In this document: piece after piece, positions 1-31,023 of the stretch
Position numbering within the stretch: the stretch's first letter is position 1
Layout: every line of letters starts with the position of its first letter
NCBI GenBank assembly: GCA_963924565.1
Contig: OZ004607.1
Coordinates: forward strand, 15,500,001 to 15,564,000
From: Ascidiella aspersa
Taxonomy: Eukaryota
Direction of reading: 5' to 3'
Length of the DNA stretch: 64,000 nt
The notes under the pieces: generated by a model
Seen by the model: the letters and a program-made list of their open reading frames with translations, nothing else
Database searches by the model: none
Told to the model about the DNA's origin: nothing
Made by a program: the position numbers and the translations under genes

Positions 1-3000
1 TTCTTCACAAAAATCCGAGTGTACGTCCTTCGTTCGACGCGTTTGGCGACTCGAGTCACTACTGCTGATTAGCGTTGTGCTGCCTTGTGGCTGCTTCACA
101 CCAAAAGCGTACGAGAAACGCGGAGTTCGCGACTGCTCACTGCAGGCGCTCTTTTCACCGTCCAAGTTAAGCTTTGAGCGCGCAGCCAAAAACTCTGACA
201 CTGGAAGTTTCGTTGCATTGACGAAAATTGTTTGCGAACGTCGCAATGGTCGTGCTAAAACAACACAAAATATTGTTTAACTTGGCTGCAGAGTTTCAGT
301 TTGATTAGCTATTAAGTTTAAATTCGATTTAAATGATATTTTCTATGGACCGACAAAATATACTAAATATAGCAAGATATTGGTATTTCGGGGTGTGTGC
401 TTTTTAGCAAAAAGATAAAAAGAAAACTAAAAATGCGCATTTGGTGCTATTGATTTTTAACAAATTTACGATTTGAGTAAAATTAATCAATACACTTACA
501 TTTGACCGGGCTAATAGACGTTTTCTTTTTTCGGTGCTTTGATTTCAGTAACGTCCGCCAAAGTGTTGGCTTCTTTTTGTTATCCTGTTTGCAAAATTAA
601 AATTTTAGGAATTAATCCAACTGCTTACTGCTCATTATATTGCTATGTTGTCTTTTTATTTATTACTTTTTCTTGAACGTCGTCTAAATAAGCGCCTGAC
701 AAAACCTATATATCTCAAATGGATTCACCTGTATGCTTGATTTACTTTCTGACGAGTCTGACGATATCGACTCGAGTAAAATTCCGGCATCATTTCGAGC
801 TAGTTGATTTTCTTGATCGCACAACTTCGACACAATGTGATCATTGTGACGAGCTAAATTTAAAGCGGTCAGTCCTGTCGCCTGTTGGACCTTGCGGAGA
901 TCATCCCCGCTTATTGTCGGTAACGGTTGCTCCGTTTCCGGACCGACAACGGTGTCAACGGCAGACCATGCCACTTCACGAGCTTTTTGCTCCTTTAAAT
1001 AGCTTTGACCAACGTTGGATTTCTCACAAACATTTTTATTATCCTCAACTACCGGACTTTTCTGCGTGCGACTTTTTAATATGTTTTCCTGCGAGAATTC
1101 GCAATTTGAGCTGAGTGACCTGAAAATAATCGTAAAAATTAATTTCTTAAACTTTTACGTTTGGCAGAACAAACTTTACAAATTGTAACATAAAGGTTAA
1201 GCAATTAATTTATAAACTGATAGAATTAGTTACGTTACATCTAAATCGCTCAAGTGTGCCTACAATTTAATTACTTGAATTTTTTCCGAATATACAAACT
1301 GACATGTTTTGAGTTTCCGAGTATAAAACGGTTTCTGAGCCAAGATGGTGGCGTGAAGCAGAAAGCGATTGTGCGGTGTCATATCTTAGGTCGTCGGAAA
1401 AATTCCAGGAAGAATTAAGTCCGCGGTCGAATGTCGACTCCGAGTAAACTGTTTCTTCATCGTAATCTCTTTCAGTGTGACGTTGCACAAACACGGATAG
1501 TCGTTTCGATATTTTTTCTAGTTTTGCATTTCCTTCAACAGCTGACATAGTTTTGCTTCTGTAGAAAACAAAAGCAAAGTCAAAACACAATACAACCAAA
1601 CTGAAAACATAATACTTACATAGATTTCACGATACTTTCGTGATCATCAGTTTGATCATTTAAATGATCCATCTCTTCGTCTATGAGATACGATGCTCGA
1701 ATGCACAACTCTTGCACTTGAAGTTCAGCCTGTGAAATAAGTGATGTAACCCTAATTGACATGTTAAGACTGGAACAAAAACAAGTCACATACAAACGTT
1801 AAGTATAGAATTTATGGCAACCGTACAACTAACAAGTTACCTCCGACAATGCAACATCGCCTGTTAGTTCGAAATCGTCGTATGTTTTAGCATAGAGCAT
1901 TTCTTTTTTACGCAAGTTTGGAACTCCAAATCCGTCTTCTATAAAACCGGAAGTAGTGCCAGTGGATGATATGCCGCTATCAAAGCCCATTTTTCTCTTT
2001 TCTAAACTAGAATGTTTGAAACTCTTTCGGTCGCTAATTGTGCGCAATGATTCGCGACTTGTTGACTGCTGATCCCCGGTGGAAACTGTATCAGAACTCC
2101 GTTTCATAAGAAACCCAGGTATTCTGCCGCAGAACACACTCGGTAAAATCAATTTAGATAATTTGTGCATTTCTTGTTTAACTGCCCGCCACATGTCGAT
2201 AAACGATATTTGCTGACCAAGGTCGTGTTGAAATTGATCCTTTGCATTTCGCCAAGGTTCGGATGAAAGAGATCCACCTTTGGAAATTTGCCAGGCGAGT
2301 GATGATCCATGTTGCAAGTAAGATTTGTACTTTTTATTAGAATTACCATTATCGGTCGTTTTAGAAGTTGAAATTTGTCTTTGATAGACTTTAACGAGAA
2401 GGGCTCGCATGATGACCCTCATAGCAAAAAACACAAAGCAGAAGTAAAAGATGCACAAAGCGGCTCCCACACGACTTCCAGCAGAATTCGTATTGCTTAT
2501 AAAAGTGGATCTTAATCCCAACGACCTTCCAGTAGTTTCTTGGAATGACCTTGCCATTGATGAGCGGTAAAACATGTTTGACCCAAAAAAAAGGTAGCCG
2601 AGCGCGGCCAACATAAACAGCAATACCACGAAGACTAGGTATATAACAGTAGCTTCTGATTTCACTGAGCCAAACATAACCGCCATACCACGGGTGAATT
2701 TGCTATTTGAGCCGTGCCAAGTTACCACAAAGTTAATGCACTGAATGACCAGCAAAACTGTCCAAGCGGCCATAAAATGGCGGGAGATTGTTTCGTTGGT
2801 AATAATAGCGTCAAGATACTCTGGGTAGTTGCTTCCAAGGTGCCCGTTGCTGGTAAAATAATCGGCCGAACGTAACAGGCTTGATCGCAATACTGTAGAC
2901 GCAACTAAGTAGCATACCACCACTGACCACATAAGCAGGTCCAATATTGACATGAAAAAATTGCTGGGTAGAACTAAGCGTTCTCGCAATTCTTTATGAT

Positions 3001-6000
3001 TTTCAGGTGATGACGCATTTCGCTCAATAAGCGAAACAACGTACCGAACAGAAGACCAAGCTACCCAAATGACAAGTAACACCTGACAAAATGCGAGCAT
3101 ATTGCGTTGATTGTTGTCGCCGGCGGTTAAATTCACAGATCGAAATTGGAGCCAACTGCGAGGCTGCTCGGTTCCATATCTGAACTCCAATACACCGACA
3201 ACGGTCGTATAGTGTTTTGTAACTGTGTTATAAGTAAGCAACTGCATTCGTATTGCATCAGGTTCAGTGGTGAATAGATTGTCGTTATTAAACTTGTCCG
3301 GTTGAAACAGATTAAACTCGTATTTCTTTTTGACTTGGTAAACTTTTCCAGATTGTTTATTTGTAAAACTGTCACCCAACGAAACGTTGCCAATGCTACA
3401 TTCAGTAAGATTTAATATTTTAATCATTCTTGCTGAATGAGTGCTGCATTTGTCTTCTACACGTTTGTGCAAGTTCGTAATTTGAACGGTTCCAAGAAGT
3501 AGTGTGTTTTCGCTTCTTTGAATGCGACTGGATACGTTTTCAAACTGTCTTTCATTTTCATTCGACATAAGGAACCTTTTGCACCAAATTCGCCAATTTC
3601 GAAGCGTTCTAATATCGCTAAAACCAGAAACGCTGGAGTTTTTTGAGCAGTTTGTAGAGAGAAAATTCTTGCCGGCAATACATACACCACTTTCGAAGAG
3701 CTGTCGAAAATGAGCTCTATGCTGACTGGCTTCCTTGCTCCAGGCGTTTTGTGTGGCAGTAATAACAGCAAGTGTCAAGGCCAGGTAAAGAAGTTGCAAC
3801 CAGGAAAAAAGTGCACATTTTGCCGCCGCATATCGCCTCAGTTTCTTCGAAAGTTTTTGCAGTGGATTTTGCTTGATTTTCCATTTACCTTTGTCGTTAT
3901 ATGGAGGTGCGATGTTGCGCAAATACCGCATTCTTCTTCGTTCGGACAACCTTTTTGTAATCTCAGAGCTGCTTATTTCATCCTCTTCGTGTTGTCCAAA
4001 TAAAGAATAATGGTCTAAAATGGAAAAAAAATTCGAGTGCAAAAGTAGTGTTAAGCACGCCGATGTGCCTATTTATTTCAACAACGAAGTCTATGGTAAA
4101 CAACAATAGTATAAGGTGTTAGATACCTAGACATATTATTTGTGCGTTTCGTAATCGTCAAATTGGGGAATTTATGTGAGTAAAAAGCGTGTTTTTATGT
4201 CATTGATATAAGTGTAAATAAAATGGGAAATATGTTAATTAACTTACCACGGTGCTTGTACGCGTAATCGTCCACTGGCGCAGCGTCGACAGTAGGAAAG
4301 AGTTGCTCCAAGGTTTGAGTAGCATCCTGGCGCATCACAACGTTGCGCATAGTGGCAATCAGCGCAGAACAAAGGACAAACAGAATCTCGACTACCACTG
4401 CAGACCAGAAGATTGCAAAGCACGCGGTTTCGAGCCAGCGGTCGAAATCTGAGTCGATTAGGTACTTTGTCGCTCCATAAACGGTACACATGACGCTGAT
4501 CATAGCAATGATCATGTAATACGCCCAGGCAATGTAGCTGCATTGACGAGGCAGGGGTGCTGTGTTGATTGGCACGATAGGGTTGAGTTTTTCGCATGGG
4601 ACCAGCTCAGGTCCGTCCATGGCAAAAAATGAAGGATTATCCACGAGTTCGTCGACATATTCGTTATTGGCGCTGTAACAGAGATTTCTTTTATTTGTAA
4701 ACCGTACAACTTTTAAAAATCACATTTGTTACATGAAACTATATATGGGCTATAAAATGGCCTTACAATTTATTAGAAGAGAAGAAAAGGCAAAACCGAT
4801 ATTTATATATTTAAAGGCAAATACCTATTAAAGGATGCACCATCTTGCTTTTGAATTTCTTCTCGTTCAGGTTCGCTAAACGAAACGAATGATTTATTCG
4901 TTTGTAAGTTCGAGTTAGGTGGCGACGACCTGTCACTCAACACTTGCAATGAGTCGTAACGATGATCTGGACCTATATAAAGTTACATCATTGAAACGTT
5001 GCTTTACTTATTGCATTTTTAAAATAAAACGATTGAAAGAATGACAGCACAATCTTCTGAAATGCTATCCTATAATACCCACAACATACTTCTGGTATGA
5101 GTTACATTAGTGGAGTCAGTGGAACCACTAAATGGTGTCCCCATACATCTCGCTATTTCCTCATTGTATAAACTTCCGTCAGATTTTAAACTGATCACGC
5201 TTCCAGGAAGGAAAGTGGAAATTTCGTGGTGGCCAGGTTTGTTGAAAGTGCCGTTTTCTGTCTCCACGTCCATTTCTTTGCACTGGAGCCACTCGGTAAC
5301 GAACTTGTTTGGTGTTTCGTTGATGATGTCGTCAAGCTCAATAAAGTTATGCATTACCGTGGCAGTTTTTCGTAGATTTCCTGAAAGAAATAGATTTCCT
5401 GATAACTACTGATCGAAGTAGGATCCACATAATACTCAAACAAGGAAAATAGCCTAACAATTACCTGGTGGTGTGTCGTTGTATTGGTCGTTACCGGATT
5501 TGTTCATTGGTAAATCGCCATAAAAATTTGCAAAAGGAGAATGAGTACTGTTACTCGTGCTGTCTTCCATGACTACCGAGATTCGATCATCACGTTTTGT
5601 GTACCTGTAATAATGTTTGTATAGTATAAATGTAATAATAACACAACTAATATACTACCGACGAACGACAAGAGTTAAATTGTAGCTTCGCTATGGCGTA
5701 CCTGAATATTAACTGTGCTGGAATAAGGAAAACGGTGGCACACACTGCGATAATAAAGCCCCAAGCAACATTTTCGCCAGTAAAACAAGAAACTCCTAAG
5801 AACAATCTCTTGATTATTTGTATGACAGGGAAAAACAATAATTAACTGGTTATTTTACTTACCATAGCCGTACTCATTCGACTCCGTCATAATCGTCTTG
5901 ACAGAAGCTAAAGCCATGACAACGATGCATAAAGTCATGGCGTGGGCTATTCTCTGCGCACGACTTAATATTCCCCACCTTGCACATGCAAAAATTGAAA

Positions 6001-9000
6001 TGGTGCTGCGGGAAATACATCACTGATTGTTAAAAAAATATAAAAAAAAAACTTACTTTATTAGTTTCTTAAAGTTTCCAATTTATAACCATTATTATAT
6101 TAGTTTATTGGTTTCCAATATAATATTACAACGCAAGCTAACCTGTGATAATCAAGTATCATATTTTTGCCACGAATCGCCATTTGACGTACAAAAGACG
6201 GTTTGCATTCCATCGGCCACAGGTTCCTGCTGATCCGGTTGGCGCCCCTGTCCAGGGCTAACCAAGAATCACACGGAAAGAACCACCTATTACCGTTCGT
6301 GACGTCACGAATGATGACGTAGTCGAGAAACCATCGTGGACAAGGTCCAGTGTGGCTATGCCATATCGACATCTTTCTGGGAGAGCCGAAGTTTTCGGGA
6401 AAGGTGACAATAAAGGTTTTGATGGAACCTGGATAGAGGATCACAATTCGATTTGACTCAAAGTAAAAATCGACACTGTATTAGCAAAAACACACGTTAA
6501 CAAACCTGTTTCAAAGACGAATGTTCCATTTTGCGTAACAGTCATTGATTCCATGTCGTAATCAGATGGAACCCTTAGCTCCCTGGCCTCGTACTTCTTC
6601 TCTGAACCATATATTACCATGTGAACTAAAGAAGAGGTTCCACTTCCCGGCCAATTTCCAGTGTGAAATGTAATTTCAAATATCTATAAAAAATAGGTTC
6701 GGCAAACGAGAAAATTAGCCTAATTGCACAATTGTAACTCGTTCGCCAAGTAATACAATTTATACATGTGGTTGTGACCCTATACCTGATTGTGATCGGG
6801 TTTGTTGTCCTTATGTATAATTGGCACCCTGCCACTTGCACCTCGATCGTCAGCCCCGAAAGTCCTTCGCATCCAGCTTCCGAGGCCAACAGCTTTTGGC
6901 TCACCAGTAACATCATCCACCTCCGGGAAGCTTCCGCTTCGCCGCAAAAGAAAGCGATGGATGCAAAAAAAGCAGCAGAAGGAACAAATAACAAAGACCA
7001 GAACCTATATTATACACATTTCATTCATTATTGCAACGGTCAGATGCATTGCAAATGTTGCGAATCGAATGTCGTTATTTTAACAAACATTTGAAAATGC
7101 CTTTTTTATGTTGTGACCGAAAATACGCGGAGATCATCACACTATATATATATAAATGGTTTAATATAAGTCCGTACCACTAAAGTAGGAGTAAGGGCTG
7201 ATGCTTTTGCGACTAGAAATGCTTCTTTTGAAATAAAAGTTGTCTTTAATCTTTGAAACGAGCTGGTAAAGGTTGAAAGATGTGTTACCGAACATACGGT
7301 TTGCTCAAATCTTGATTCGTTTAGCACCTGAAGTCACGTAACAACAGTTGATTAAAATGTTCGCGCTACCTACAGATGAACACCAAGAAGATTACTAACC
7401 TCGCAACCGGCGGTACTCCAAGTGTTCGCCTCAGATTGCCAGTAGAAGCAGTCAGAGTTCCAAATTTTTAACGTGTAGGGTATATTGGGTGCTAACGAGC
7501 GATGTCTGAAGTAAGTTTTGCCGATTTTGTGATCGAATAAAGTAACATAGAATATCCCGGGTCCCAGTAAGTATCCAGGTGATAACATAAACTTGACAGA
7601 TTGCGTTGTTCCTGCAAATGAAGGGATGCTAAAATTGTAAAGACACCGTCAGTATAGACTCTAGTTCAAACGCATTTTGTTAGCATATCGGTTAGGACAA
7701 GGCCTTTACATAAAAAATTATTTTCGTAACAGTTTACAATCCTGAAAAATATATTTTTAAACGATTTAGCAAGTTCGTACTCCGGTTAAATTATACGATA
7801 ATTGAAAGTACTTTTTGTTTAAAAAAAACGTTTCGAAAAAAAACTGTTAGAGATATAAAGTCTTACCAGATTTGAGAACACTGCGGCTGCTTTGTTTTGG
7901 TATTGTAGCCAATTTGATAATTACTGTGTCGTTTAAAGGGTCTTTAGTCGACAAAGGGTGATCTGTTAAAGCCACAGCAATTTCAAATGGCCTACAGAAA
8001 CAAAAAAGTTGTAACCCCTGAATAAATGACAAAGTTGTACAAGTAGCGTAATGTTTACCACAAACCTGTTGAAGGAATTATCTACCGAAAGAAGAATATG
8101 TAGTGTCATGTTTTCCACTTCGTTGAATTTAAATTCATGCTGCGATAGTCTGTCTTGTGCAACAGTGTAGGAACCGTCAACGGAATTATTGGTTTGCTAA
8201 ATCAGAGTCAAATGTTACTATAAGATGATTAACAACATTTAGATAAAAAAATTACCGAGATTGGTCTTTGCGGTAAGCGTATCGTGATGGGCTCTGTCAA
8301 GTGACTAACATTAACCACCGAGGTACGTTCATTCATCATCCACAGAGAAAGAGCACTGGAGTCCATCTAAGTCAAAATATCACCATAATACAAGTTTCGC
8401 TGTTTTCAGGTTTTACTGAAAAATGGTTAATCCACACTTACTTGAATTGAGTTCTTCGCCTGGTAAAAAATATTTTTATTCATAAATGCAATTGAAGATT
8501 GAAACAATGTTGTAGTATTTTTGCTTAAGTAAAGACTAAGACTTGATGAGGGAAATTGCATCTCTGCCTTTGGAAAAGAATCTGACAAAACATACAATTA
8601 ATATATTAACAAATCCATTAAACTTATGTCATCTTATGAAAGGTTTAACAAAAATCTTACCTTTCTCTATTATTAGCGAACTTTTTGCTCGTTGAACCAA
8701 TATTTGAATTCCAACTGCGGTAATAGTACAAGATCCAAAATACAGGCTGCGGTATTTTACGACATCTGAAAAGAATTAAATTAATTATATTAATACCCGT
8801 ACCTGTAGAGGACTCGGCACGAGTAGGTATTCAATATCACTATAACGATTGCAGACGAGAGGTCGAAAGATAACAATTTACTAACCAAAATAGAAATCAC
8901 GCAAATCCCTCTCGATCAAACCAATGTGATTTAGAGAATCTTTTATACTTCGACGCGAGCGTAACTCAGATCGTGTAGCAGGCTGTCGCGAAGAGAGTAT

Positions 9001-12000
9001 AGCATTTAAAGCACATAACGAATGTTTGACAATTTCTTCTGCTTCTTTCAAGATCTCCATTTCACCACCTAAGACCAGTTTTATCGTATAATTATAAACT
9101 ATAAATCTAAACTGCTTTTTCAAGTTATGTAGAACCTGTTTTAACACAGTAAATCTTACCTAGTGCTGACAGTTGTTTGTTGACCGATTCCTCAAAATAT
9201 TTGTGCCTGATTTTTTGCTCTCTCGCACCAGTTGCCATTTGCCTGCTAACTACCAGAGTTCGAGTCAAAATATCTGAGGTTTGAGTTAGGGTCATGCTCA
9301 ACATAAATTCGCTATAAGTTAGGACGCGCGAAAGCGTCTCAATTAAATCGTGGGTTGCTCTCAGTCGCGCGCAGCACTTGTATTTCGCCAGCGCTTCCAC
9401 CAATCCTTTCGTTATGATTTGTATTTGTTTACCGACGAAATCGTGTTTTGTCATCATGTTGTTCACTTCGGATACCTAAAATAAAAACAAAACTGTCCAA
9501 TATTGGTCTATTTACTAAACGTAACAATTGCTGGACCTAAACTGTGTAAACACGTGTTGATTTGTACCCGAGGGATTAGGTCGTTCATAATCAATGGACA
9601 ATTATAACGACCCTCGCATTGAAAGCATACACAGCTATACCCACAATGGTTTGGTTTTTGGTACAAACAAATTGATTCAAATGCAAGAACAACACAAATA
9701 ACCGCTATACCTCATGAACAGTGGCGTATCCAGGGGGGGTTGGGGGTTCGGACCCCCCCCCCCCTTTTCGTAAGTGACAATATCGTTTTTTGATCGTTTT
9801 TGTCAGCGTTTAAACTCACCATCCGAAGCTGCGTGTTTTTCAATGTAATTGGGTCAAGCGTCTTAAGCTAATGCGAAACCAAAATCAAACGCAAAACGCC
9901 GTTTGTTGTTTGGTCGACCGTAAACGCAGGATATTTTTTCTTTCGCATTTCCTTATTCGTTCAGGTTGGCTGATTAGCAAGTGTGTGTTCGACAATTAAC
10001 AACAATAAATCAAGCGGTCTCCGCCTTTTTCTCGCTTATAACGTCGAGTTAGGCGGTGCTGATGTTTCCCGCAGTTTGCCATTTCATATACTTTTCGACT
10101 ATTTTAACTACGTAAGTGCGAAAAATTTTCGCGCTTCGCGCGAATGACTTTTACACGTCCGTTTTGTTTACATTTTAATGCTGTCTTTTGAACAGCGCTG
10201 CTTTACCGTTGCGCCGTGGAGGGCTGCCAAGTGCGTCGCGGACAAATGCCAAGTGCGTCGCGGACAAAACGTATTCAAAAATATTGGACATATTTTTTAT
10301 TTTTTAGTTTCGGCAATGTGATAAAACTTGCAATAAATTTAAAAGAAATGCCGTTATACCAAAAAAAATCGCGCTCGCTTCGCTCGCCAGGTCTGCCCTC
10401 TCTTAAAAAGGTTAACATCAATGATTTTACAACTATTTAAGTGGCGTTTTTATGTTGTGCTAGTCGAATAACACCCGGGAAAACTATCTTCGTTTAGTAT
10501 TGCAGGTGGCGAAAGACGTGCTTGTAATTTAGCGTGGTCCCGTACATGGATCTACCAAAATCAATCATATATACTTATCGGTCTTGTTTTCGATTTACTC
10601 CTGAAGTTAACGATTGTACACTAAGCGGTATCATTTATGACGTTATCACAATCGCTATTTTACGACGTCATATCCGTCACTATTTTATGACGTCATTAAC
10701 GTGACGAAAAAGCGGGGAATTCCCCAAGTTGAAAATTCGGGACCCCCCTTTTTAAATTTCTGGATACGCCCCTGCTTATGCATGCTGACAGTATTGCGAC
10801 AAAGTATTTATTATACCTTTAAGCGTTTAAGAGGATAACTAATAAACTTAATTTAATTTCTTTTTTGCAGTAATGTACGTTCTTTATCATACCGATGGCA
10901 TGGAATCAAGTATCATGTTCACGAAATTCAATATGGCGTTGTCGTCTCCTTCAACCATTAAAAGTTGCAACTTACTTTTCTTTCCAACAGTTTGCTCATA
11001 TCTGAATTTCAAAAGTTGCATAGTGTTGTATGAAAGCACATCAATTAAACTGCATAACAGTCTTAACTCATATCACAACTTACGCAAAATTCAATTCCAA
11101 AGAAAGCCCTTCGCTTCTTGAAGCATTTGCACCACTAGTAAAATTCATTGGGATTACACAGACTTTCGTGATTGCACCAAGGTTGTTGACAAGTGAAACG
11201 TGAACAAATACTGCCAAGTAAAACAAATTAAAAAATAATTACACGTGATCAGGCCCTTAAATATCTGAAGTATTTCAAACACAGAAAGTTACGTTTTAAA
11301 GAAACTATACCTCCATTTTTTGAAACAGGCAAAGTGAATGAGCGTTCGTTATGAGAGCCGAAGTAAATCGGCCTTGTTTCGCCATCTTTTCCTAAGCTGT
11401 AGCGAATGTCGTACTTCAGCATTGCTTGCTGCAGATTAAAAATTAATACATTTTACAAAGTGAAGTAAACCTCTATAAACTTAAAAGACTTTATTGTTTG
11501 TCTGTCTCACCTGCGTGACAACGGTGTCGATAAGTTTGTTTTGGATGTTTTTCCATTGGACACAATGGAAGCGAAACTGTTGGTTGCCCTCTTTCACCAC
11601 GCTGCACCAACCCATGCTGGGGCCTCTATTGGCACGCAAGTAAAATGTTCTACTTCCGTGCTTTATCACGTTATGCTTGCCTGCAATGCCAAATAGAAAA
11701 AAAGTCATCAGTTGCTGCAAAAAATGAGTAAACCTGTACAAATGACAGTTGTTAAATTGAATTATTCCTCCTATGGGTTTTACTTCTTCAGAAAACCAAC
11801 TAAAATATCGGTAAATTCGATTTTTGAGCGAAGGTTACCAGATGTTTGAGTTCAGGTGGTCTCATAAGGCAAGGCTGTGACCCTTTTAAATTTATCAAAA
11901 CTTTTTATTTGAAAGTTTTAGTTCAGTTAAATAGACAGTAAAGTTCCAATTTTTGATAACAATTTTGTTAATTGTTACCTGTATAATGAGTAGCTTCTGC

Positions 12001-21000: not shown

Positions 21001-24000
21001 AACATCCATTTGTATAAGACATCCTTCGACTTGGTTGGGAAAACTAGCAAAATAGGAATTAACTTAGTTTGCAAAAATATGATGTTGTCATACAAACGCC
21101 TATTGTAAATGAATCAACAATAGGTTTCAAATCCCTAAAGCAACAACAATCCTAATAATATGGTTTTGCATCAAATACTAACCATCGTTGATTACTGCAA
21201 TTAAAGTATTTTCTACTCCATTGTAAATGGCCGAGGAATAGGTGTTGTCGGATCTCACCACTTTCAACTGATTTATCATGGTTCCAACGGTAACACGATT
21301 CATCGCAACCAAATTTCTGCCCTTCTTGGTCACGTGATTTCTCACCCTAACAAACACTCGAAATATCCCACCGCTTCGAAACGCTTTAGTCATAAATCGA
21401 AAAATGGAAGGTCCTGAAACAGAAAAAACGGAAATTAATAGGTTTTTCATAGTATTGCTTAGAATCTTTGAAAAAACGTATTAGTATAAATGTTTTACCC
21501 GAATATGTTCCTGTTTTGTTCTGAAATGACTGAAATCCAGATCCAATAAAGCAGGAAATTTCCATGTTAATTTGAAAATGACTTCCTCTGAGCCACAAAA
21601 GGTAAAATATGCATTATATATTATGAATGAAAATAATCTTACCACATACCGGTAACTTACGATTTTAAAGAAACTGTAATTTCTGCACGGTCTCCAATAT
21701 TTAAGTGCTTCGGTGTGTCCAACTTTAGACCGGTGAGGGGTTCTTCACAACAAATATTTGCCTCTTGTTCGATGCGTGAAACAGAGTTTTGCACAAAAAC
21801 CCTGATTTTGTGGCAACCAAGTTGAGACGGCCTATGCCAAGACAAGGAAAAAAATTAAACTATTCAAAAATGGTAAAAGGATATTTAAAAAGTATAGCCT
21901 CTCTGTAAAAGTCATTGTTTAAACTTAGTTGAGCAGTTTCCAGAATACTTACACGAATATTTGTGATTCATTATAAGGTGCCAACTCTCTTAATGCTGTG
22001 CCGTTTTTTGCCCCGTTCAGAAGCCAAAATATCGTGAAGTTGGATCCTGCAACATCAACCGTGTGATATTCAGGCGTTCATCGCGTTTTGTTAAGCCGGC
22101 TATAAAATTTACCTTTCCCGACTCGTACGTTTAGTTCCACTTGTTGACCAACTCTTACGTGAGGATCGCTCGGCTGCGTCACAAGAATGACGTCACCCAG
22201 TTCCTCTTCGACAAATATGAGGCAAAACTCTTGTTCCACGTCGTAGCGACCGGACTCGATGACACGAACGAAGTACATTCCCGGTTGATTGAAAGAAAAG
22301 CCTAACGGCGAAGACCGAGGTTTTTTGTAAACCCTTTTCCTGAAACATTGCATTTTGTAAGTTGTGTTGCTTTGAGTTGCTAAATTTAAGGTGTTATCAA
22401 GCAAGCCGACTTGTGCGTACAGCAGGCCATACGTTGAGGTATAGAGGTTAAATATAGAACTTAAAGCGCTACCAATTTAACTTTATTTTGCATGCAAGCT
22501 TTATGTATATATTTTTTATGTTTACCATCGGGCTGAGGTTCGAATTTCTTGGGGGTCGTTTGGGTTGTAGGGGTCGTCCCGAATGTCTATAATCCATAAG
22601 AACACAACTCCGTTTGCCCCTCTCACTTCCATCCTGTAACGTTAGTAGCAATACCGTAACAAACTGTGAGTTCTGCAACATGATTATTCCTTAAGCCTTA
22701 AGTTACATACGTTGTCCTGTCACCGGTTCTAACCAAGTTGTCGCATATAAGAGTGTCCGTAGATTTTTTGTCACCGATTACTCGAACAGCTTGATCTAAC
22801 CTGGATGCTGTTTGGTACGACGAGTTTGAAATCTAGAACAAAATTTTGCAAAATAGGACCACGGCCATACCGCTATATAGAGTTGACTTTCAAAAAACGT
22901 GTTAAAATAAGCAATCGCAAAAACACCCCTTGGTGCATTACCTGAACATCGACTGTATAGAAGCCTGACTTTCTATAGACGTGCGAAAAATAAATGCTTA
23001 ATGTGCAGTGATCGGTGTAGCACATTGTGCAGTTGGTACTAGAGCCAAAAAATATATAATTGTTGTTAAACATACGGTAAAATTACTGCATGGTTGAAAA
23101 CATTTTCATAAATAGCCTACCTTGGTTTGTTAGAGCCTAGTTGTAATGGTGCACTTCGCCATAAACTTTCTTGTGGCAAAACCTCATTCTCGATATCTCT
23201 GTATAAAAATACGTGTCTGAGGGTATCTTCAGTCAGGGGAGGCCCCCTAGGGCCTGAGGAGTTAGCTAGGGGAGCACGAAAAACTAACTGAACAACTTTG
23301 TTTTGATTTATTTTTTTCAAGTCTTTGTTACCGGGTACACGAATATTTATTTTTAACTCCTTTTTAGTCGTGACTGACACATATCATTTTATTCCAATTG
23401 CTTAATCTCTCCTTCTCAGTGATATTCATCTTGTTCTGCAGTTTCTTAAATTGAGGTACAGTAACCTAAATGTGTACACACTGTGCAATACAGTGTTGCC
23501 AGAGATAACTGCCCCACGGCCGCATCATCACCCAAACCATATTTTAGCCAACTTTTACTATATAAATGCATATGCGCTAGTGTTCACGTTTACTACATTT
23601 TTTCCGTTAGAAAGAAATATTTTCAGCGCATAGACACCATGCACACTATGACATATTTTGTGCTTTGTGAAATTATTCATTCTAGAATGTCAATAAATAT
23701 CATTATGCTGAGAAACTTACAACTTTCCCTAATACAATTCGTAATTGTGACAAAATAAACAACTTTATTGTGCTGGTTTACATAATAAAATTGTTAAACT
23801 AACGTTAATCACAGATATCAAGGGCTTTCGCATAGTTTGCCAGGTTTACATTTAAACCCCTTTACACTATCTGTGCAGTGCTTTAATTTATCTGACAACA
23901 TTGCCTGCGTTATGCACATCATGGTGGCTATCAAATATTATTCGGAGAACAGGCGCTATAGTTTCGAGAAATGGTGTCAAGGCCCTTGACTCAAGGGCCC

Positions 24001-27000
24001 CCATAAGTTAAGGAATCCCTGATTAATTACAATATGTTGCTTTCATTAGCATGCCTGGTACCGGTATAATTATATTGTACTTACTGCGGGGCGGCACGAT
24101 TGTTAAAATCTAGGTGTCTTTCCCAATTTAAGAAGGTTTGTTGACTCAAATCAATGGACATGGAACGATCGTCGCCGAAACGAATTTCAGCATGAACTGA
24201 CTTTCGCAAATTTACTTCGACAGTGGCCTGTAGACATAGAGAATGTTCAAGTAAAGGTTAACTACAAACAAAATTTCACCAGACATTATAGCTAACCCTG
24301 AAGCACACTTTCGATCCAGTACGATAAACGGCATTCGATATCACTGGAGAAGGTTCTGGTTCCGGCGAAGACTGGGTTGAAACACTATTGGACAAGTAGA
24401 CAGTCCGACTTGGAGTTTGCTGCCAGTCGGGGATAGGGGGCGACGGACAAGTTTCCGCACAGCTTACCGTTTGAACTTGGACATTTTTTATGGTAGGGGT
24501 CATGATGACAAGATATAAAGTGTCCGTAGCCCTTCCCAAGTGATTGCTGGCCTCAACAATGACAAAGCACACTCCGCTGTGATTGAACGTAATCACCTGT
24601 GACGAAAAATCCGGATTTTTAAGATCAAAAATCATTTTTTATTAAAACCACGCAACGTTGGTGTAAACTTGAACACAAATCCACGAAAGGAACAAAAATA
24701 CTATAATTAAGGTTATAGGCTACATTATTTCTTCCAAGCCACACATTTGCAAACGAACCTGTTCGTCGACAGTGCACCTCTCCGGAGTGGTTGCACAAGA
24801 ACTGGCTTTCTGCAGGTGAGGACTTGAAGAACGTCGCTCTCGAAAGCAGAAGTTCCAGTTAAATGTCACGTTAATTCCATGCTGAATAGTCGCACGCAGC
24901 TTCACTCGATTACCTTTCATCACGGCAACGTAAGACTTAAAAACTGTTGGACGAAATCATGTCGTATATATAAAAAATTTGTCCTAAGATTTTAAGGTCA
25001 GAATAAAAATTTTACGAAAAAACAGACCCGATGATGCGACAGTTTTCGACGTGCATGAAGGCTGAAGCGAGTAGTTCAAAGCAAATCTGACTTGGAGATC
25101 CTGCGGTCGTTCAGATAGTACTATGATCTTTAGCAAGCCAGAGTCACTCGACAATATGTTGGACGCATTCACCTCTAAAAATAACTTGGTTCATTTACAA
25201 TATCAACAGAACAGCGTGATTTGCTTAAATTTATATTTATTTCAATTGTTGTGAATTTTGGAATTTTTCGCAAAAATATGACAAGGCAGTGTCAATAAAA
25301 TATATATAACTTACGGATATTACGTGGTCCCATTTTCGTAAACGTGTATTTTACCGTTAGTCGTGCCTCTGCATTGGCAACTGTCATCGTATAGCGACGT
25401 GGTGAGCTGTTCGGGTAGGCGACTGAAACGTTTACGTTACGAAACAAGCCATATTCCGGCTTGAAGTCTAAATGATGCAGAAAATATGCAAAGATGGTAC
25501 ATAAATAAGGGTTTTTGCAGATAATTAAATTAGATTTGTATCATAAAAAAAACACGAGTTACAAAGTATCGATACGAGAAAACATATTTGTCAGCAAGAA
25601 CGAATGAAACATACCTGTCCAGCGTTGAAGCCCAGAGCCCATTTTTACGACAACTTCAACTTGAAAATCTTGGTTAGCCATGGCTGTTATCGAAGAAGCT
25701 TGGACGATAACATTTGTAATATATGGCGCATCCGTTTTATAAACACTGAAAACGCGCAATCCTCCACATGGAAGGTCATAATTTCCGTCCAGACACCTAC
25801 AAAGCGCAATTTGATAAATATTAGATCAGTGATTTTGAGCCCGTGGGATGGTACGCACTTGTGCGGTTTAAAAAAAATTGTAAAGCGGATGATTAACGTC
25901 GTGCGGATGACAATGGTGCATGGTATCATTTTTTATTATGTGTAATACAGTAATCAAATAAGCTGGTGCGTCCACTTATGCGTTACAGGTACAGTAATAT
26001 GATCTCGTATAGTGGTTCATTGCAGCTTAAGATATCTAATTTATATCGGCCAAGGCTTAGGCCTTAGGCACACGGTTTTAATACAAAAACACTTTTATTG
26101 TTATTTTACAAATAAAACTAAAGGTTGCAAACTCACTGAACTTGTTTCGTGCAGAAGGAAGTTTTCCGAAAAAAAAAGTGCGGATGGAAATTGTAAAAGT
26201 TGAAAAGCACTGTTTGAGATTATTGTCTAAGTTTTTTACGAAATTGGCTATGACAGTGCTTCCCAACCTTTTTCAGTTCGCGATCCACTTTTAATGCAAG
26301 TTTTATTGTGCGACCTAAAAATAAGATATGACCAAACGAATAAAGTAACATAAAACCTGCATCTTTACTACTGGCGTACGTAGGCTACTGAAATAGTTAA
26401 TGCGACACAACACATCTAATTGTTATGTATTTGTGATATAGTTGCATAAATGTTACGTAATAATAATGCTATAGTTTCCCGATCTAATAGAAAAGTGTTA
26501 CATTTAGAAATGCTTCGCGGCCCACCATAAATAGCTTCACGACAAAGCACTTGGCTAACAGACTGTAAATGTCAGCTTTATAACATTACCTGAGATGGCA
26601 AGCTCCTTCGTCTACTTTGCTTAAGTCAGTGACATCTTGAATGCAACAACATATTGTGCCCTTTAGTACACCCGTGAATGGATATCTGGTTAAAAATATA
26701 TTTGTATATACGATGATCTATAAATATTCCTGATACATTTGAATGAAATATGTGTGGTTAATAATATCATTTTTATTATGGTGATCACGTTTACATAACT
26801 AAATTTATTTATATGTTTGTATAGGGAAGTTAATTTTTTTACAAATTCCCGCAAACAAAAAAAGAAAAACGTTTAAATGCAATTTGCAGAGCTTGGCAAA
26901 GATTGTATGTCAGGGGTTCTTAAACTGGGGTCAAAAGACCCCATGGGCGTAAGTGAACTACGTTTTTTAGTCCATGAAAACCAAACCAAATCGTAGTGCT

Positions 27001-30000
27001 AATTACAAATTAGGTGACTTTTTCAAACAAAAATAGATGAATTAAAAAAAATGGTTTGCCCTCTTTTGATAAATTTCGGTCGATTTCAGTCATATTGAAT
27101 CACAACAAAATACAGCACGTTTCTTGAGTCTACTCGTTTTGTGACGTCATCTCTGAAAATTTGTAAGCCGACCCTGGTCGAAGCAAAATATTTTTTAAGG
27201 GTCGGCGTTAAAATATGTGGGGGGCTGGGGGGGGCAGGGAGCTGTCGTTGGGGCATAAGTCTGTAGAAATGTCGTGGTATTGCAAAATCGTGTCACCATT
27301 TCAAATTTTTTCAGTTAAACTCAAATTTGTAGTGTTAAACCTACTTTGACCTATTGTAACGCATTTTTTCTAGTATGTTACTGCCTGCTGTTCGTGAGAA
27401 GTTTTGCAACAGTCGACCTCAAGCTTGCAATTCTTTGTCTGTCGCCTAATTGCTAAACATTGTTACGTCACTTACAACCAATATTTGTGTTTTTCTAGTT
27501 TACTCCGTATTTATTTGGAACGTTTAACCAGCATTTTAATTAGTTTGTAAACGGCAAGTTAGAACGATAGCAAAACTAATACAAGCAAGTCAGAACATTT
27601 TTTTCGTCAAAATAACGGTATTACTATTTTGGCTCGTAGAGATTTGTTGTTGTTCCATTGATAAATTTTGTTGTAAACTTAATTGTGTTAAAGCCAGCTT
27701 AAGAGGACAAAGAAGAGTTGAGTTGAACATACTTTCAGATGTTTACTATTGAAAATAAGTTTTTACAGAGAGCCACAAGGTTTTGTGCTATCAAATGTCG
27801 AAAATTCGCAAATCCGTGGTGATGTTAAGTGCGTCATTACGACCCTCAAAACTTATAAATCACCGTGATAAAAAGCATTCTCGAAGAAAGAATGATGCCG
27901 CCACAAATTCTAGCTATTTTTTTTATAATCGAGGGGAGCCACGAGTATTAAAAGGCTTTCTAAGGGGGACACGAGGCATAAAAGGTTGAGAACCGCTGGT
28001 TTAGGCCTTCCACTGTTTTATGTCCTTTCCAACACAGGCTAAATATGTTGTAAAACATATCTTTGGATGTAATTAGATGACATAATTAGTAATTAAATTA
28101 GTAATTAAAATAAATGCTAATAATAGATTAATTGAACGGCATCATTAAATTTTTAACGCATATCAGAGTGGTTCTCATATTCTGCAAGATAATCTCTCGC
28201 GTGACTGAGAAAAATTTAATACCCGTAAAAGCAAACAGGCTGCGTTATTTTCCCGTTGACAGAACTACTCGATATAAACATCAAAAGGTAACGTCAAAAT
28301 ATTCATGATAACGTTTTCTCTTCTCATTCATTAATTAAACTATGTGCAAAGCTGAAAAAAACAAGAAATACACATTGTGAAATACAGCGCACCAAAATCA
28401 AGCCAAAGCCACCAATTGCGTTGTTGATGAATATCACAGTTCAACATGTGAGCGATTCGCCTCGGGCGTACGAGGCTAAATTGTGTTCATCGTTTGTGGA
28501 AGAATGACAAAATACCAGGTTTTCAAATAGCGCGCATTTTAGCTTTTATAATTTCGTGCAATATATATTGAAGTCTTAGGTTTAGTTCATTAGAATGCCA
28601 AATATAAGAAGAAAAAAAAACATAACAGCGCCTAGTATCCAACGAAAACAAATAGTAAACAACAAACAATATTTATTTCTTAAACGTTCATAAAAAACCT
28701 GTGGTCACAACTGAAAACTAACAAAATACCAATATTTATTAAGTATTATATATTCTTGTAGAGCAAACCTACAAATTGATAGTCATTCAGTACAAAATTA
28801 TACATACCCAGCCAAACGACAATATCTTGAGCAAATAACAGGTGTAGCTGTTTTTGTTTCCAATTTTTCGATGTTGAAGTGATAGGCATTATCGAAAATG
28901 TTGTAGCAGCCGAAATGCCATTTACCTGATTCTTCAGCTGTCATTGATGGAATATTTTTAATTTAGTAGAACAAATTGTCAATGGTCATACAAGGTTAGA
29001 AAGGCAAACGGTTATCCTAAATAGGCACATTAGTAAAAATTCATTCTTCATTAAACTTGACAACGATGAGACAAAACACCGATAATCGTTTTTAAATATT
29101 TATTAATAGTTTGTTTCTCAGTTACATTTTGGGTTTTCAGACATCAATCGGCATGTTGTTTTCGAATTTTGCCATCGGTGGTCGAAAGGTTGTGGCTATA
29201 CAGTAAGCCAATATTGGATCAAATATTTAGTAATGTTTCAATAAAAAGTCAAACAGCGAAAAAATGCTTAAGGGTCTGTATATTTGGAGGATTTTTAATC
29301 TACAATAGGCTAGCCTTCCTAGAGTTTACACAACATACTCATTTTAGAAAGTGGTCAAATCGATTAAGGAAAGCATTACATTTTGGAACAAAATGTGTTT
29401 TGCTGAAATATTAGGTAGTTTAGAAACCGTTTTTTTTTCTTTTAAATTATAGTGACGGTCTCCAAGGTTATAGTTTGACGGAAATAGTTTCTTTTTAAAT
29501 AGTCTTCTGTTGTAGATACAAAACATGTATGGACAACATACCCTAATAAGTTTTCATTTGCGAAAATTAAAGTTCACTTGCGAGCCCGTGTACCACATGG
29601 TGGTGACGTTATAACACAATATAGTGGAACGGAATCGCGCAAAGCAAAAAAACAATGCTTTAATAATGTGTTTAAACTACTATAGTAGAATTGTTAATAT
29701 AGTTGAGCTTACTTAAAAAAATAGTTTGTTTGTAATTCTCTTTTTATAAATCGTTTTTTAATACCGCCATGATTACAATAAAGAATAACGCAAAGATTAG
29801 CGAATAACGCACTATTAAAGCGATTATAAAATTTTATTTTAGTATCAGTCCTGTGTCTTTGAGAGTGGGGTTATTGTGAAGTAATGGCTACACTAGTTAT
29901 ATTGGTTCATTCGTGTGTGCTTTAATATACTATACTTTTCTATGATATTAGAGCACAATTGTAACTCAAGCAAAACTGCATCTCACATAACACGACTACA

Positions 30001-30126
30001 AAACACATGCCAAAATAAAGCACAAAAATATGTCAAAGAAATAAAAAGAACCTTACCAAAACATTGCTGATGGTTCGTAAACAAGAATATACAAATAGAT
30101 AGAAACAGTGTTAAGTGGATTTTCAT
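1..30126 (-). CDS. PKD1L1: Polycystin-1 family protein, PKD1L1-like (about 72 exons in window, >4,600 aa, 3' end outside the window)
   Basis: Hand splicing from ATG 30126 gives a continuous frame through GT-AG introns with matching phases. First exons 30057-30126, 28808-28937, 26590-26685, 25615-25796; last exons 4248-4672, 1841-4014, 1620-1729, 1304-1558, 729-1119, 500-584, 1-254. Motifs: REJ (PLVALIDGG..LDASHSYDPD), GPS (CFYW..WSTAGC..CSVTHLSTF), PLAT (FEITFHTGNWPGSGT..IWHSHTGPCPRWFLDYV..FPCDSWL), DYHSTISIF..SRAQR, multi-TM C-terminal region. The PKD1L1 rather than PKD1 call rests on remembered similarity: REJ insertion ending EGDRLV and pre-GPS RSLAPNIPYTLKI. Family is secure; orthology is less so. 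Confidence 0.88.
1841..4014 (-). CDS. 2,174-nt exon: TOP/polycystin channel region plus start of cytoplasmic tail
   Basis: Lies in the 737-aa ORF. Acceptor TTTTAG before 4014 and donor GTAACT after 1841. About six hydrophobic segments, including ALGYLFFGS..SMARSF. Confidence 0.9.
6220..6683 (-). CDS. PLAT/LH2 domain
   Basis: IFEITFHTGNWPGSGTSSLVHMVIYG..FETG|SIKTFIV..MSIWHSHTGPCPRWFLDYVIIRD..WFFPCDSWLALDRG. Confidence 0.9.
7268..7450 (-). CDS. GPS motif of the GAIN domain
   Basis: CFYWQSEANTWSTAGCE|VLNESRFEQTVCSVTHLSTF across two exons, followed by hydrophobic TM1. Confidence 0.9.
9719..10774. mobile_element. Non-autonomous hAT-like element in a polycystin intron
   Basis: TIR CAGTGGCGTATCCAG / CTGGATACGCCCCTG; degenerate 8-bp TSD CTCATGAA/CTTATGCA; internal 22-bp tandem duplication at 10225-10268. 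Confidence 0.85.
11083..15520 (-). CDS. REJ module with long low-complexity insertion
   Basis: LRSYPLNLEANVAFNC..YQWTV, PLVALIDGG, LDASHSYDPD, YSWKC, CSNC..FDWTI, then a Gly/Pro/Ser-rich insert (about 13727-12210), then GPSMGWCSV..FRFHCVQW. Confidence 0.85.
15520..25730 (-). CDS. Array of PKD/Ig-like repeats (about 1,500 aa, roughly 13-15 units)
   Basis: Repeated PKD motifs in about 28 short exons: WTMGDG, WIMGDG, FGDD, HVYRKSGFYTVDV, HVFRSPG, VNASNILS, VEASNHLG, VQNSVS, VRNDIS, VSNQLS. Unit count is estimated from length. Confidence 0.8.
15699..16071. mobile_element. hAT (Ac-type) MITE
   Basis: Termini TAGGG..CCCTA, perfect 8-bp TSD GTAATGAT (nTnnnnAn), many TTTTGAC subterminal repeats. 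Confidence 0.9.
25735..28937 (-). CDS. WSC domain of the polycystin (exons 2-4)
   Basis: Spliced translation WHFGCYNIFD..TPVICSRYCRLAGYPFTGVLKGTICCC..CHLRCLDGNYDLPCGGLRVFSVY fits the WSC cysteine pattern (GCY..CxxxC..GY..CxC..CxxxC..CGG..VY). These exons are mostly missed by the ORF track. Confidence 0.85.
26254..26552. mobile_element. Degenerate Buster-type hAT MITE
   Basis: Left end CAGTGCTTCCCAACC, eroded right end AAGCACTT, flanks GGCTATGA/GGCTAACA. Confidence 0.55.
26911..27998. mobile_element. hAT MITE remnants (probably two partial elements)
   Basis: Left end CAGGGGTTCTTAAACTGGGG, related to the 40742 family; right end AGGTTGAGAACCGCTG; flanks do not form a TSD. Confidence 0.65.
30057..30126 (-). 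CDS. First coding exon of the polycystin gene, signal peptide
   Basis: Translates MKIHLTLFLSICIFLFTNHQQCF, then a GTAAGG donor in phase 1 that matches the next exon. Confidence 0.8.
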
Positions 30127-30868
30127 GTATCCACCAACGCGCGACGAAACTGTATTCCACATTTTCTACCTAATCCACGTATTTCAATATTTCCAAAGGT
30201 ATTCCATACTTTTTCGCAAAACTAACGTTACAAACTCTTAATAGCTGTTGACCTTAATACAATACAACGTGTGCTGCGTTAAATCACTACACCTTGTAAT
30301 CTGATAAAAGACAATCTTCGTAATCTGTAAACTATTATTTTGAGACTTTACGTTCACGTCTTGATTTATTGACCAAAATCGCGATTCTCGTCTGTCTGCC
30401 TTTTTCCTAAATCCTGTTTTGTTCTAGGGTCAAAGCCTTATCACACTTCGCATTTAGTACACCGCAGCTTGAAGCAAACTTACAATGAATCCAAGGCTGA
30501 TGTGCGAAGCTTAGCTTCTTTCGTGCCCCCAGGCAACTCGGAAAAATTTGCCAGCAATCAATTGACTTTCAACACGTGAATTCAAATATGTTTGAAAATT
30601 GTCTCGCGTAAATGTTTGTCATGCTGCTATGCCTATACAGGGTTGCCATTAGTCTAATGCCACCCAAAAAAGACCAATGGCAAAATAATATTTTATAGCG
30701 AACAATCCAATGACATTAAGCGTAGATGGGTAGATGGGTTTGTATTCAAAACTTGCTTTGTGGCAAATTCGACACAATAAAGCCGTATCCGTAAGTCACG
30801 TTTTTTTTGATAAGAAGTAATTTTCATAAAAGAAAACCTTAACAATCAAAACAAATCTTGGAGCAGTG

Positions 30869-31023
30869 CAGGGGTTTTTTAAGGTTTGGTTTGGGTGACC
30901 GCTAAGTAGTTTTAAGAGACCGCAAGTGTTTCATTTAAATACCAAAAAATAGCCATATTAGTTGCAAGTCCAAATTTTGGTAAACCGCTGGAGAAATTTG
31001 AAAAACACCTTAAAAAAACACTG
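30869..31023. mobile_element. 155-bp MITE inserted at the terminus of another MITE
   Basis: TIR CAGGGGTTTTTTAAGG / CCTTAAAAAAACACTG, perfect 8-bp TSD GAGCAGTG; the host end CAGTGGTTCCCAAACTGTGGGCC follows at 31027. Confidence 0.85.

What the first reader, a model, noticed from the sequence alone, without database searches (positions are those of the whole stretch)
1..30126. Giant hybrid-architecture polycystin: PKD1-like ectodomain on a PKD1L1-like core
Seen: an intact frame of more than 4,600 aa with signal peptide, WSC and about 1,500 aa of PKD repeats, but no LRR or C-type lectin segment. Established: human PC1 has LRR, WSC, C-lectin and about 16 PKD domains, while vertebrate PKD1L1 (the left-right organiser partner of PKD2) has only two PKD domains. 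Inference: the REJ insertion and GAIN-proximal motifs look PKD1L1-like, so this may keep an ancestral long-ectodomain PKD1L1. The WSC domain would suit a carbohydrate or matrix sensor. That would be of interest if the host is an ascidian, where left-sided Nodal depends on contact with the vitelline membrane.
Basis: partly seen in the sequence, partly recalled or inferred. Interest (0 to 1): 0.72.

Follow-up and report, generated by a model that had tools for sequence, protein, structure and literature searches.

The report
Sea-squirt PKD1L1 with long ancestral ectodomain
This is a real, transcribed sea-squirt gene for a giant membrane protein of about 4,700 amino acids that is likely the so far unlabelled tunicate version of PKD1L1, the vertebrate left-right sensor, and it likely keeps an ancestral long outer arm that vertebrates shortened rather than being a hybrid, which makes it a testable candidate for how sea-squirt embryos tell left from right.

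Summary
Observation confirmed. A 73-exon model on the minus strand gives 4,715 aa: signal peptide, WSC, about 1,600 aa of PKD-like repeats, REJ with a ~230-aa insert, GAIN/GPS, PLAT and 11 TM; no LRR or C-type lectin. It is collinear with Phallusia (43%) and Clavelina (34%) proteins that carry WSC in one chain. RNA reads lie on the right strand; two introns are confirmed, none over the WSC exons. The genome's real PKD1 is another locus. The four tunicate proteins group with PKD1L1-type invertebrate sequences (99/95; union with PKD1 rejected only at p-AU 0.03) and share five characters with the PKD1L1 rows of a published alignment (read by eye; no named PKD1L1 could be fetched). 'Hybrid' is unsupported: WSC-PKD-REJ is routine in invertebrates, and the annelid PKD1L1 cDNA begins in a homologous repeat far upstream, so the long ectodomain is probably ancestral. 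The channel part escapes Pfam and has a trimmed TOP domain but still folds like a polycystin. Ten literature searches found no tunicate PKD1L1. A role in vitelline-membrane-driven left-sided Nodal is untested.

The parts
1..30126 (-). PKD1L1-type polycystin gene, 73 coding exons, 4,715 aa; the last 9 coding bases lie just beyond the window start
   Evidence: model; collinear tblastn with P0001/P0010
30057..30126 (-). exon 1: start codon and predicted signal peptide
   Evidence: sequence; similar hydrophobic N-termini in P0001 and P0010; no RNA reads here
25615..28937 (-). WSC domain, split over exons 28808-28937, 26590-26685 and the start of 25615-25796
   Evidence: Pfam WSC on orthologs
15480..25796 (-). 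array of degenerate PKD-like beta-sandwich repeats, about aa 124-1726 (exons 4-33)
21588..21660 (-). intron confirmed by 3 spliced RNA reads
11084..15169 (-). REJ domain (exons 34-48)
   Evidence: Pfam REJ
12210..13727 (-). low-complexity insert of about 230 aa inside REJ (exons 39-44), same place in Phallusia, Clavelina and Ciona
   Evidence: Pfam REJ spans 667 aa in P0001 against 448 in PKD1 P0017
7178..11001 (-). GAIN region ending in the GPS motif with an intact His-Leu-Ser-Thr site, then the start of TM1
   Evidence: HLST in 4 of 4 tunicate proteins
6143..6683 (-). PLAT domain (exons 60-61) with PKD1L1-type characters and a linker two residues shorter than in other paralogs
   Evidence: Pfam PLAT
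5796..5862 (-). intron confirmed by 5 spliced RNA reads
4248..6005 (-). TM2-TM5 and the long cytosolic loop
   Evidence: hydropathy
1841..4014 (-). single 2,174-base exon: TM6, trimmed TOP domain, TM7-TM11 (channel part), start of the tail
   Evidence: no Pfam channel hit; polycystin fold by prediction
1620..1860 (-). conserved amphipathic helix in the tail, likely the coiled coil (spans the 1730-1840 intron)
   Evidence: conserved in 4 of 4 tunicate proteins; coiled-coil role inferred

Best explanation
This gene encodes a 4,715-aa, 11-TM polycystin-1-family protein that is likely the tunicate ortholog of PKD1L1, likely retains an ancestral WSC-plus-PKD-repeat ectodomain that vertebrates trimmed to two PKD domains, and is predicted to work as the receptor subunit of a ciliary polycystin channel with PKD2. 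Shown: gene structure, domain order, transcription, polycystin fold of the predicted channel part, exclusion from the PKD1 group in the trees. Inferred: self-cleavage at the GPS leaving the ectodomain attached; assembly with the PKD2-like gene at G000:C9:13.35 Mb as in solved PKD1/PKD2 and PKD1L3/PKD2L1 complexes; bending of, or matrix contact with, the long ectodomain changing calcium entry. The most likely job is mechano- or contact-sensing in ciliated cells; left-right patterning is one possible use (about 0.2), not shown.
For: Trees on 28 rows: the tunicate clade joins 6 PKD1L1-type metagenome loci at 72/93 (LG+F+G4, 326 columns; bootstrap/SH-aLRT), 90/93 (mixture model) and 99/95 (485 columns); PKD1 + oyster PC1 + own-genome locus A form a separate group (99-100). 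AU tests on 485 columns: with PKD1 p 0.031, with locus B 0.038, with loci C/D/E 0.011. Profile test: 4 of 4 tunicate proteins score highest on the PKD1L1-type profile (192-204 bits against 132-162 for PKD1 and 142-160 for L2/L3); 0 of 5 other own-genome loci do. A PKD1L1-type PLAT exon finds this window first among 17 matches in the genome. By eye against the 121-row alignment of PMC6294549 supplement 5: Trp in the strand before the GPS in 13 of 14 ungapped PKD1L1 rows and 5 of 93 others; Gln just before the first PLAT strand in 14 of 15 and about 3 of 96; Glu in the E-x-R/K-E-L motif in 14 of 15 and about 3 others; shorter post-PLAT linker in 15 of 15 (two residues in 13) and about 3 others; last helix with Arg and without the usual Asn-x-Phe motif as in human and mouse rows. 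The tunicate proteins have all five. Teleost PKD1L1 REJ spans about 580-600 aa against 440-470 in Pkd1/Pkd1b (PMC5318412), matching an insert. The Platynereis PKD1L1 cDNA is 13,396 bases and its first 400 bases, translated by eye, match model aa ~333-530. Locus A, not the window, is the PKD1 match (summed tblastn 562 against 86 bits; C-lectin hit iE 3e-6).
Against: The tunicate stem is very long (1.8-1.9 changes per column), so attraction cannot be excluded. AU tests on the 326-column set did not reject any rival (p 0.057, 0.082, 0.086), and those on 485 columns are marginal; the L2/L3 test was not reached. All 16 non-tunicate hits of the word-based search were PKD1/PC1-type or unnamed, none PKD1L1. 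The PLAT-exon reciprocal hit is helped by exon layout; the GPS-exon search ranked the window 44th of 53. The Ciona model P0011 (2,803 aa) begins in REJ, so the long ectodomain is seen in 3 of 4 ascidians only. WSC was not seen on any non-tunicate PKD1L1. No expression site, partner or phenotype was tested.
Confidence: 0.72

Rival explanations
1. A true hybrid or a second, fast-evolving PKD1 duplicate that lost LRR and lectin (or a PKD1 ectodomain shuffled onto another core).
For: Length and WSC+PKD array resemble PKD1; all named non-tunicate hits are polycystin-1; PDB sequence hits of P0001 among polycystins are PKD1 only; 326-column AU p 0.057.
Against: Locus A is the PKD1 ortholog; PKD1 characters such as the short Cys-Gly PLAT linker are absent; ectodomain similarity to PKD1 is generic; AU p 0.031 on 485 columns; no PKD1L1 chain appeared among the PDB hits, so that search could not have shown it.
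Confidence: 0.07
2. A tunicate-specific polycystin lineage of unclear origin whose tie to PKD1L1 is a long-branch artefact.
For: Stem 1.8-1.9 changes per column; in the tree without L1-type rows it joined unnamed P0026 at 80/88; channel part hits no Pfam polycystin model in 3 of 3 named orthologs.
Against: The L1-type rows are not long branches; the discrete characters and the two-residue deletion do not depend on the tree; the longest row (locus B) did not attract it.
Confidence: 0.1
3. PKD1L1 by descent, but used as a non-conducting adhesion or matrix receptor, or on sperm in the manner of s-Themis/PKDREJ, rather than as a ciliary channel subunit.
For: TOP domain is shortened (83-86 residues between two anchor strands in 2 of 2 tunicate proteins measured, 93-126 in 6 other polycystins, and the Gly-Gly-Tyr-type motif is missing); ascidians use polycystin-1-like s-Themis on sperm (PMC7018956); coral WSC-PKD-REJ protein is in skeletal matrix (PMC4890752).
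Against: All 11 TM segments, a pore-helix-like segment and the tail helix are kept; predicted fold matches polycystin channels best (Z 16.6, rmsd 7.7 over 384); s-Themis has a hypervariable region and a nested v-Themis gene instead of WSC/PKD repeats; vertebrate PKD1L1 also has a shortened Pfam channel match.
Confidence: 0.11

Closest known systems
PKD1L1 (polycystin-1-like 1) family, vertebrate and invertebrate (PMC6294549; PMC5318412; PMC4894641)
   Same: PKD domains next to an insert-bearing REJ, GAIN/GPS, PLAT with the same diagnostic residues and deletion, 11 TM, weak match to the Pfam channel model.
   Different: About 1,600 aa of PKD-like repeats plus WSC against two PKD domains in vertebrates; much faster evolution; trimmed TOP; channel part in one 2.2-kb exon; a tunicate-only insert of about 30 aa between TM1 and PLAT.
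PKD1 / polycystin-1
   Same: Size, WSC, long PKD array, REJ-GAIN-PLAT-11TM.
   Different: No LRR, no C-lectin; REJ insert; separate branch; this genome has its own PKD1 at G000:C1:18.89-19.0 Mb.
Coral/anemone WSC-PKD-REJ-GPS-PLAT proteins (PMC4890752) and sea-urchin SpREJ6/7/10 (PMC1934368)
   Same: WSC plus PKD repeats plus REJ; SpREJ7 also has a split REJ.
   Different: Orthology to these was not tested; unnamed P0026 with this architecture does not group with the window once L1-type rows are added.
Ciona s-Themis-B / PKDREJ (PMC7018956)
   Same: Ascidian polycystin-1-like protein with REJ, GPS, PLAT and channel part.
   Different: s-Themis has a hypervariable N-terminus and a nested v-Themis gene; WSC and PKD repeats are not among its listed domains.

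Membership tests
Polycystin-1 family | REJ, GAIN/GPS, TM1, PLAT, 11 TM in this order | tested here: met
Polycystin-1 family | C-terminal six TM with TOP domain homologous to PKD2 | tested here: met
   No Pfam or PDB sequence hit, but language-model neighbours are PKD_channel clusters (0.96) and the predicted fold (pLDDT 66) matches polycystins first
PKD1L1 | Groups with PKD1L1 in a tree | tested here: inconclusive
   Groups with motif-defined L1-type loci (99/95; AU 0.011-0.038 for three rivals; not rejected on fewer columns); no named PKD1L1 could be included
PKD1L1 | Clade-typical residues and two-residue deletion around GPS/PLAT | tested here: met
   By-eye counts on PMC6294549 supplement 5
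PKD1L1 | Longer, insert-bearing REJ | tested here: met
   teleost spans; that the insert sits at the same place as in vertebrates was not checked with a tool
PKD1L1 (vertebrate form) | Only two PKD domains, no WSC | tested here: not met
   14 repeat segments marked and WSC present
PKD1L1 | Ciliary partner of PKD2 acting in left-right patterning | not testable with these tools
   A PKD2-like locus exists; no expression site or phenotype available
PKD1 (polycystin-1) | LRR and C-type lectin in the ectodomain | tested here: not met
   orthologs also lack them
PKD1 (polycystin-1) | Groups with PKD1/PC1 | tested here: not met
   locus A takes that place
s-Themis / PKDREJ | Hypervariable N-terminus, nested v-Themis, sperm expression | not tested
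   No PKDREJ or s-Themis sequence was obtained; polymorphism and testis expression not examined

The most novel reading that the evidence does not exclude
This is the ascidian PKD1L1, and it is the missing receptor on neurula epidermis (or its monocilia) whose WSC-tipped ectodomain binds vitelline-membrane proteins after neurula rotation and, through PKD2, switches on left-sided Nodal. Chordate left-right breaking would then share one polycystin sensor, read out by matrix contact in ascidians and by flow in vertebrates after loss of most of the ectodomain.
Probability: 0.15. Interest if true: 0.85.

Novelty: new variant of a known kind. Interest (0 to 1): 0.45.

Why it matters
PKD1L1 is central to vertebrate left-right sensing (PMC4894641, abstract), yet a published family tree had no tunicate in that clade and databases call the ascidian orthologs 'uncharacterized' or 'PKD1-related'. 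Naming the gene gives ascidian embryologists a concrete candidate for the receptor behind vitelline-membrane-dependent left-sided Nodal (PMC8276506, passages), and suggests that the two-PKD-domain vertebrate protein is a truncated descendant of a PKD1-sized ancestor. Taken alone, the domain order is ordinary for invertebrate polycystins.

Tried and rejected
Word-based search with the channel exon among longer proteins: 0 of 4,496 candidates. Search with locus B's channel exon to fetch named PKD1L1/PKDREJ: only PKD1L2/L3-type, 3 hits. The search for related loci in metagenomes: 120 pattern matches, none confirmed. No RNA holder was listed among indexed runs; the raw run X5 was laid instead. Atlas with the REJ-TM3 part returned unnamed REJ+PLAT clusters, no paralog name. 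GPS-exon reciprocal search was swamped by other GPS-bearing genes. Single WSC exons do not hit Pfam. Folding exon 8 alone gave pLDDT 52, not used. The alignment in the PMC5318412 supplement is a picture and could not be read; the tree strings in the PMC6294549 supplement are cut at 400 characters, so clades were read from taxon order and the main text. Three look-ups of earlier scan notes gave nothing relevant. Rows dropped from trees: L079, L081, L097 (under 150 columns), duplicates L080, L089, L093, five further PKD1 proteins, and a 9-bit L083 segment judged spurious. Neighbouring genes (SHC-like upstream, LDLa-GPCR and ATP synthase alpha downstream) gave no synteny argument. No complex was predicted.
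Full report
Observation. The window holds a compact, intron-rich gene on the minus strand. A splice-aware first pass, tblastn with its closest relatives and hand refinement gave 73 exons, 4,715 codons and canonical splice sites, 71 GT-AG and one GC-AG. The model is 43% identical to a Phallusia protein of 4,731 aa, 34% to a Clavelina protein of 4,768 aa and 33% to a Ciona model of 2,803 aa that starts in REJ; these are named 'PKD1-related protein-like' or 'uncharacterized'. The host is therefore an ascidian. Domain order: signal peptide, WSC, PKD-like repeats (about aa 124-1726), REJ with an insert, GAIN with an intact His-Leu-Ser-Thr GPS site in 4 of 4 tunicate proteins, TM1, PLAT and ten more hydrophobic segments. 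LRR and C-lectin profiles find nothing in the window. RNA run X5 covers the gene on the expected strand at low depth and confirms 2 introns; it has no reads on exons 1-2. That WSC belongs to the same chain rests on compatible phases and on the two full-length orthologs.

Paralogs in the genome. Pfam REJ, PLAT, PKD and channel scans show at least five other polycystin-1-type loci and a PKD2-like locus. Locus A (C1:18.89-19.0 Mb) is the PKD1 match: summed tblastn 562 bits against 86 for the window, a C-lectin hit and a weak WSC hit, and a place beside oyster PC1 and vertebrate PKD1 in every tree. Loci C and D also carry WSC-like and PKD repeats before REJ (WSC hit weak, iE 0.22). By eye, loci A, C/D and E correspond to the three Ciona rows in the published family alignment; none of those rows lies among the PKD1L1 rows, and the Ciona ortholog of the window gene was not in that set.

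Which paralog? Three capped protein searches and one representative search returned PKD1, PKD1L2 and PKD1L3 but no named PKD1L1. I therefore used two routes. First, the trimmed alignment of Bezares-Calderon et al. (PMC6294549, supplement 5; parts 1, 2, 9-12, 16, 17 of 20 read): the 15 rows around Platynereis PKD1L1, which include the human row that I take to be PKD1L1 by elimination among the five human queries, differ from the other 106 rows in a Trp before the GPS (13 of 14 against 5 of 93 ungapped), a Gln before the first PLAT strand (14 of 15 against about 3 of 96), an E-x-R/K-E-L motif (Glu in 14 of 15 against about 3), a shorter linker after PLAT (15 of 15 against about 3) and, in the mammalian rows, an Arg-bearing last helix. 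The tunicate proteins show all five. These counts are by eye. Second, a DNA pattern for a PLAT motif of those rows found 36 metagenome loci, of which 12 encode polycystin exons carrying the other PKD1L1 characters as well; the window itself does not have that motif, so the choice does not favour it directly. With 6 of them added, the tunicate clade joins them at 72/93, 90/93 and 99/95 on 485 columns (bootstrap/SH-aLRT). AU tests reject union with PKD1, locus B and loci C/D/E at p 0.031, 0.038 and 0.011 on 485 columns but not on 326 columns (0.057, 0.082, 0.086). In a profile test 4 of 4 tunicate proteins, and 0 of 5 other loci, score best on the L1-type profile. A further shared motif before TM6 (Arg-Tyr-Leu-Arg, then Pro-Pro) occurs in the tunicate proteins and in L101, the one L1-type locus that reaches it. 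Against: a very long stem, partial L1-type rows and no named reference. I put orthology at about 0.85.

Hybrid or ancestral? The ectodomain resembles vertebrate PKD1 only as generic repeats, 20-27% identity in non-collinear pieces. The Platynereis PKD1L1 cDNA in the same supplement is 13,396 bases long; only its first 400 bases are shown, and translated by eye they match model aa ~333-530, including a Tyr-Thr-Asp...Cys-Thr-Leu stretch. The remaining length fits a protein of the window's size. A long ectodomain is thus probably the older state of PKD1L1 and the two-PKD vertebrate form (PMC5318412, passages) a reduction. WSC on a non-tunicate PKD1L1 was not seen directly; sea-urchin SpREJ7 has WSC and a split REJ (PMC1934368, passages) and may be one, untested. 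WSC-PKD-REJ-GPS-PLAT without LRR or lectin is described in coral and anemone (PMC4890752, passages) and seen in unnamed P0026, so the architecture is not rare.

The channel part. It hits neither Pfam polycystin model nor any PDB sequence (likewise 3 of 3 orthologs). The TOP domain is shorter (83-86 residues between two anchor strands in the 2 tunicate proteins measured, 93-126 in 6 others; 8 of 16 proteins could not be anchored) and lacks the Gly-Gly-Tyr-type motif. Yet the Atlas places it with PKD_channel clusters and the predicted model (12 sequences, pLDDT 66) matches polycystin channels first (Foldseek E 2e-11; Z 16.6, rmsd 7.7, 384 aligned; TRPML follows at Z 12.5). This divergence would explain why channel-based surveys missed the gene.

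Mechanism. By analogy with solved PKD1/PKD2 and PKD1L3/PKD2L1 complexes (titles) and with mouse PKD1L1, which needs an extracellular PKD domain, localises PKD2 to node cilia and responds to flow (PMC4894641, abstract and section titles), the protein is most likely a GPS-cleaved receptor subunit that couples force on, or contact with, its long glycosylated ectodomain (49 sequons) to a PKD2 channel in cilia. All of this is inferred. In ascidians left-sided Nodal needs contact of the left epidermis with the vitelline membrane (PMC8276506, passages; the primary papers were not read), so the gene is a fair candidate receptor; but PKD1L1 also exists in annelids and molluscs, where its role is not known to me, and nothing here shows where or when it is expressed.

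Novelty. Searches pairing PKD1L1 with Ciona (7 papers), ascidian (3), tunicate (5), amphioxus (5) and wider term sets listed no paper on a tunicate PKD1L1 or on a long-ectodomain PKD1L1; most were seen as listings only, the library lacks most subscription journals, Szenker-Ravi et al. was seen only as cited in PMC12344233 (one passage), and tunicate databases could not be checked. Also seen as passages: PMC7018956 and bioRxiv 10.1101/2024.07.17.603829 (its supplements are closed). Verdict: a real gene, probably the tunicate PKD1L1 in an ancestral long form; not a hybrid; moderate interest because it makes an open developmental question testable.

Noticed in passing
G000:C1:18.89-19.0 Mb (L026-L037): The genome's PKD1 ortholog (locus A), with C-lectin and weak WSC hits but no LRR hit in the 120 kb fetched; it may lack LRR or the exons lie further upstream.
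   Followed up: partly
G000:C2:33.72-33.76 Mb and 33.85-33.90 Mb (L046-L060): Divergently oriented pair of polycystin-1-like genes (loci C, D), 93% identical in the GPS-TM3 core but clearly more diverged in their WSC/PKD exons; could reflect gene conversion of the core.
   Followed up: partly
G000:C1:32.87-32.90 Mb (L038-L041): Locus B: a long-branch polycystin-1-like gene whose channel part is also one large exon (642-aa frame); not assigned to a subfamily.
   Followed up: partly
window 57889-58146 (+): SH2 exon of an SHC-like adaptor gene (best PDB hits SHC); about 25 kb upstream of the polycystin start hold no recognisable gene.
   Followed up: partly
L044 (10 kb before the window), about 4400-8060 (-) and 1-2000 (+): An LDL-receptor-repeat 7-TM gene whose frame changes several times without obvious introns (possibly decayed or retro-copied), and the 3' exons of an ATP synthase alpha gene (names from sequence likeness, recalled).
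   Followed up: no
window 9600-10900, 15630-16300, 25830-26500, 27340-28000, 30680-31340: High-copy repeats in introns and upstream, deep in both RNA and DNA runs; likely short mobile elements.
   Followed up: no
P0002-P0009: Unnamed proteins 21-28% identical to the channel exon, apparently the same single large exon from other tunicate-like genomes; they share the motif before TM6.
   Followed up: partly
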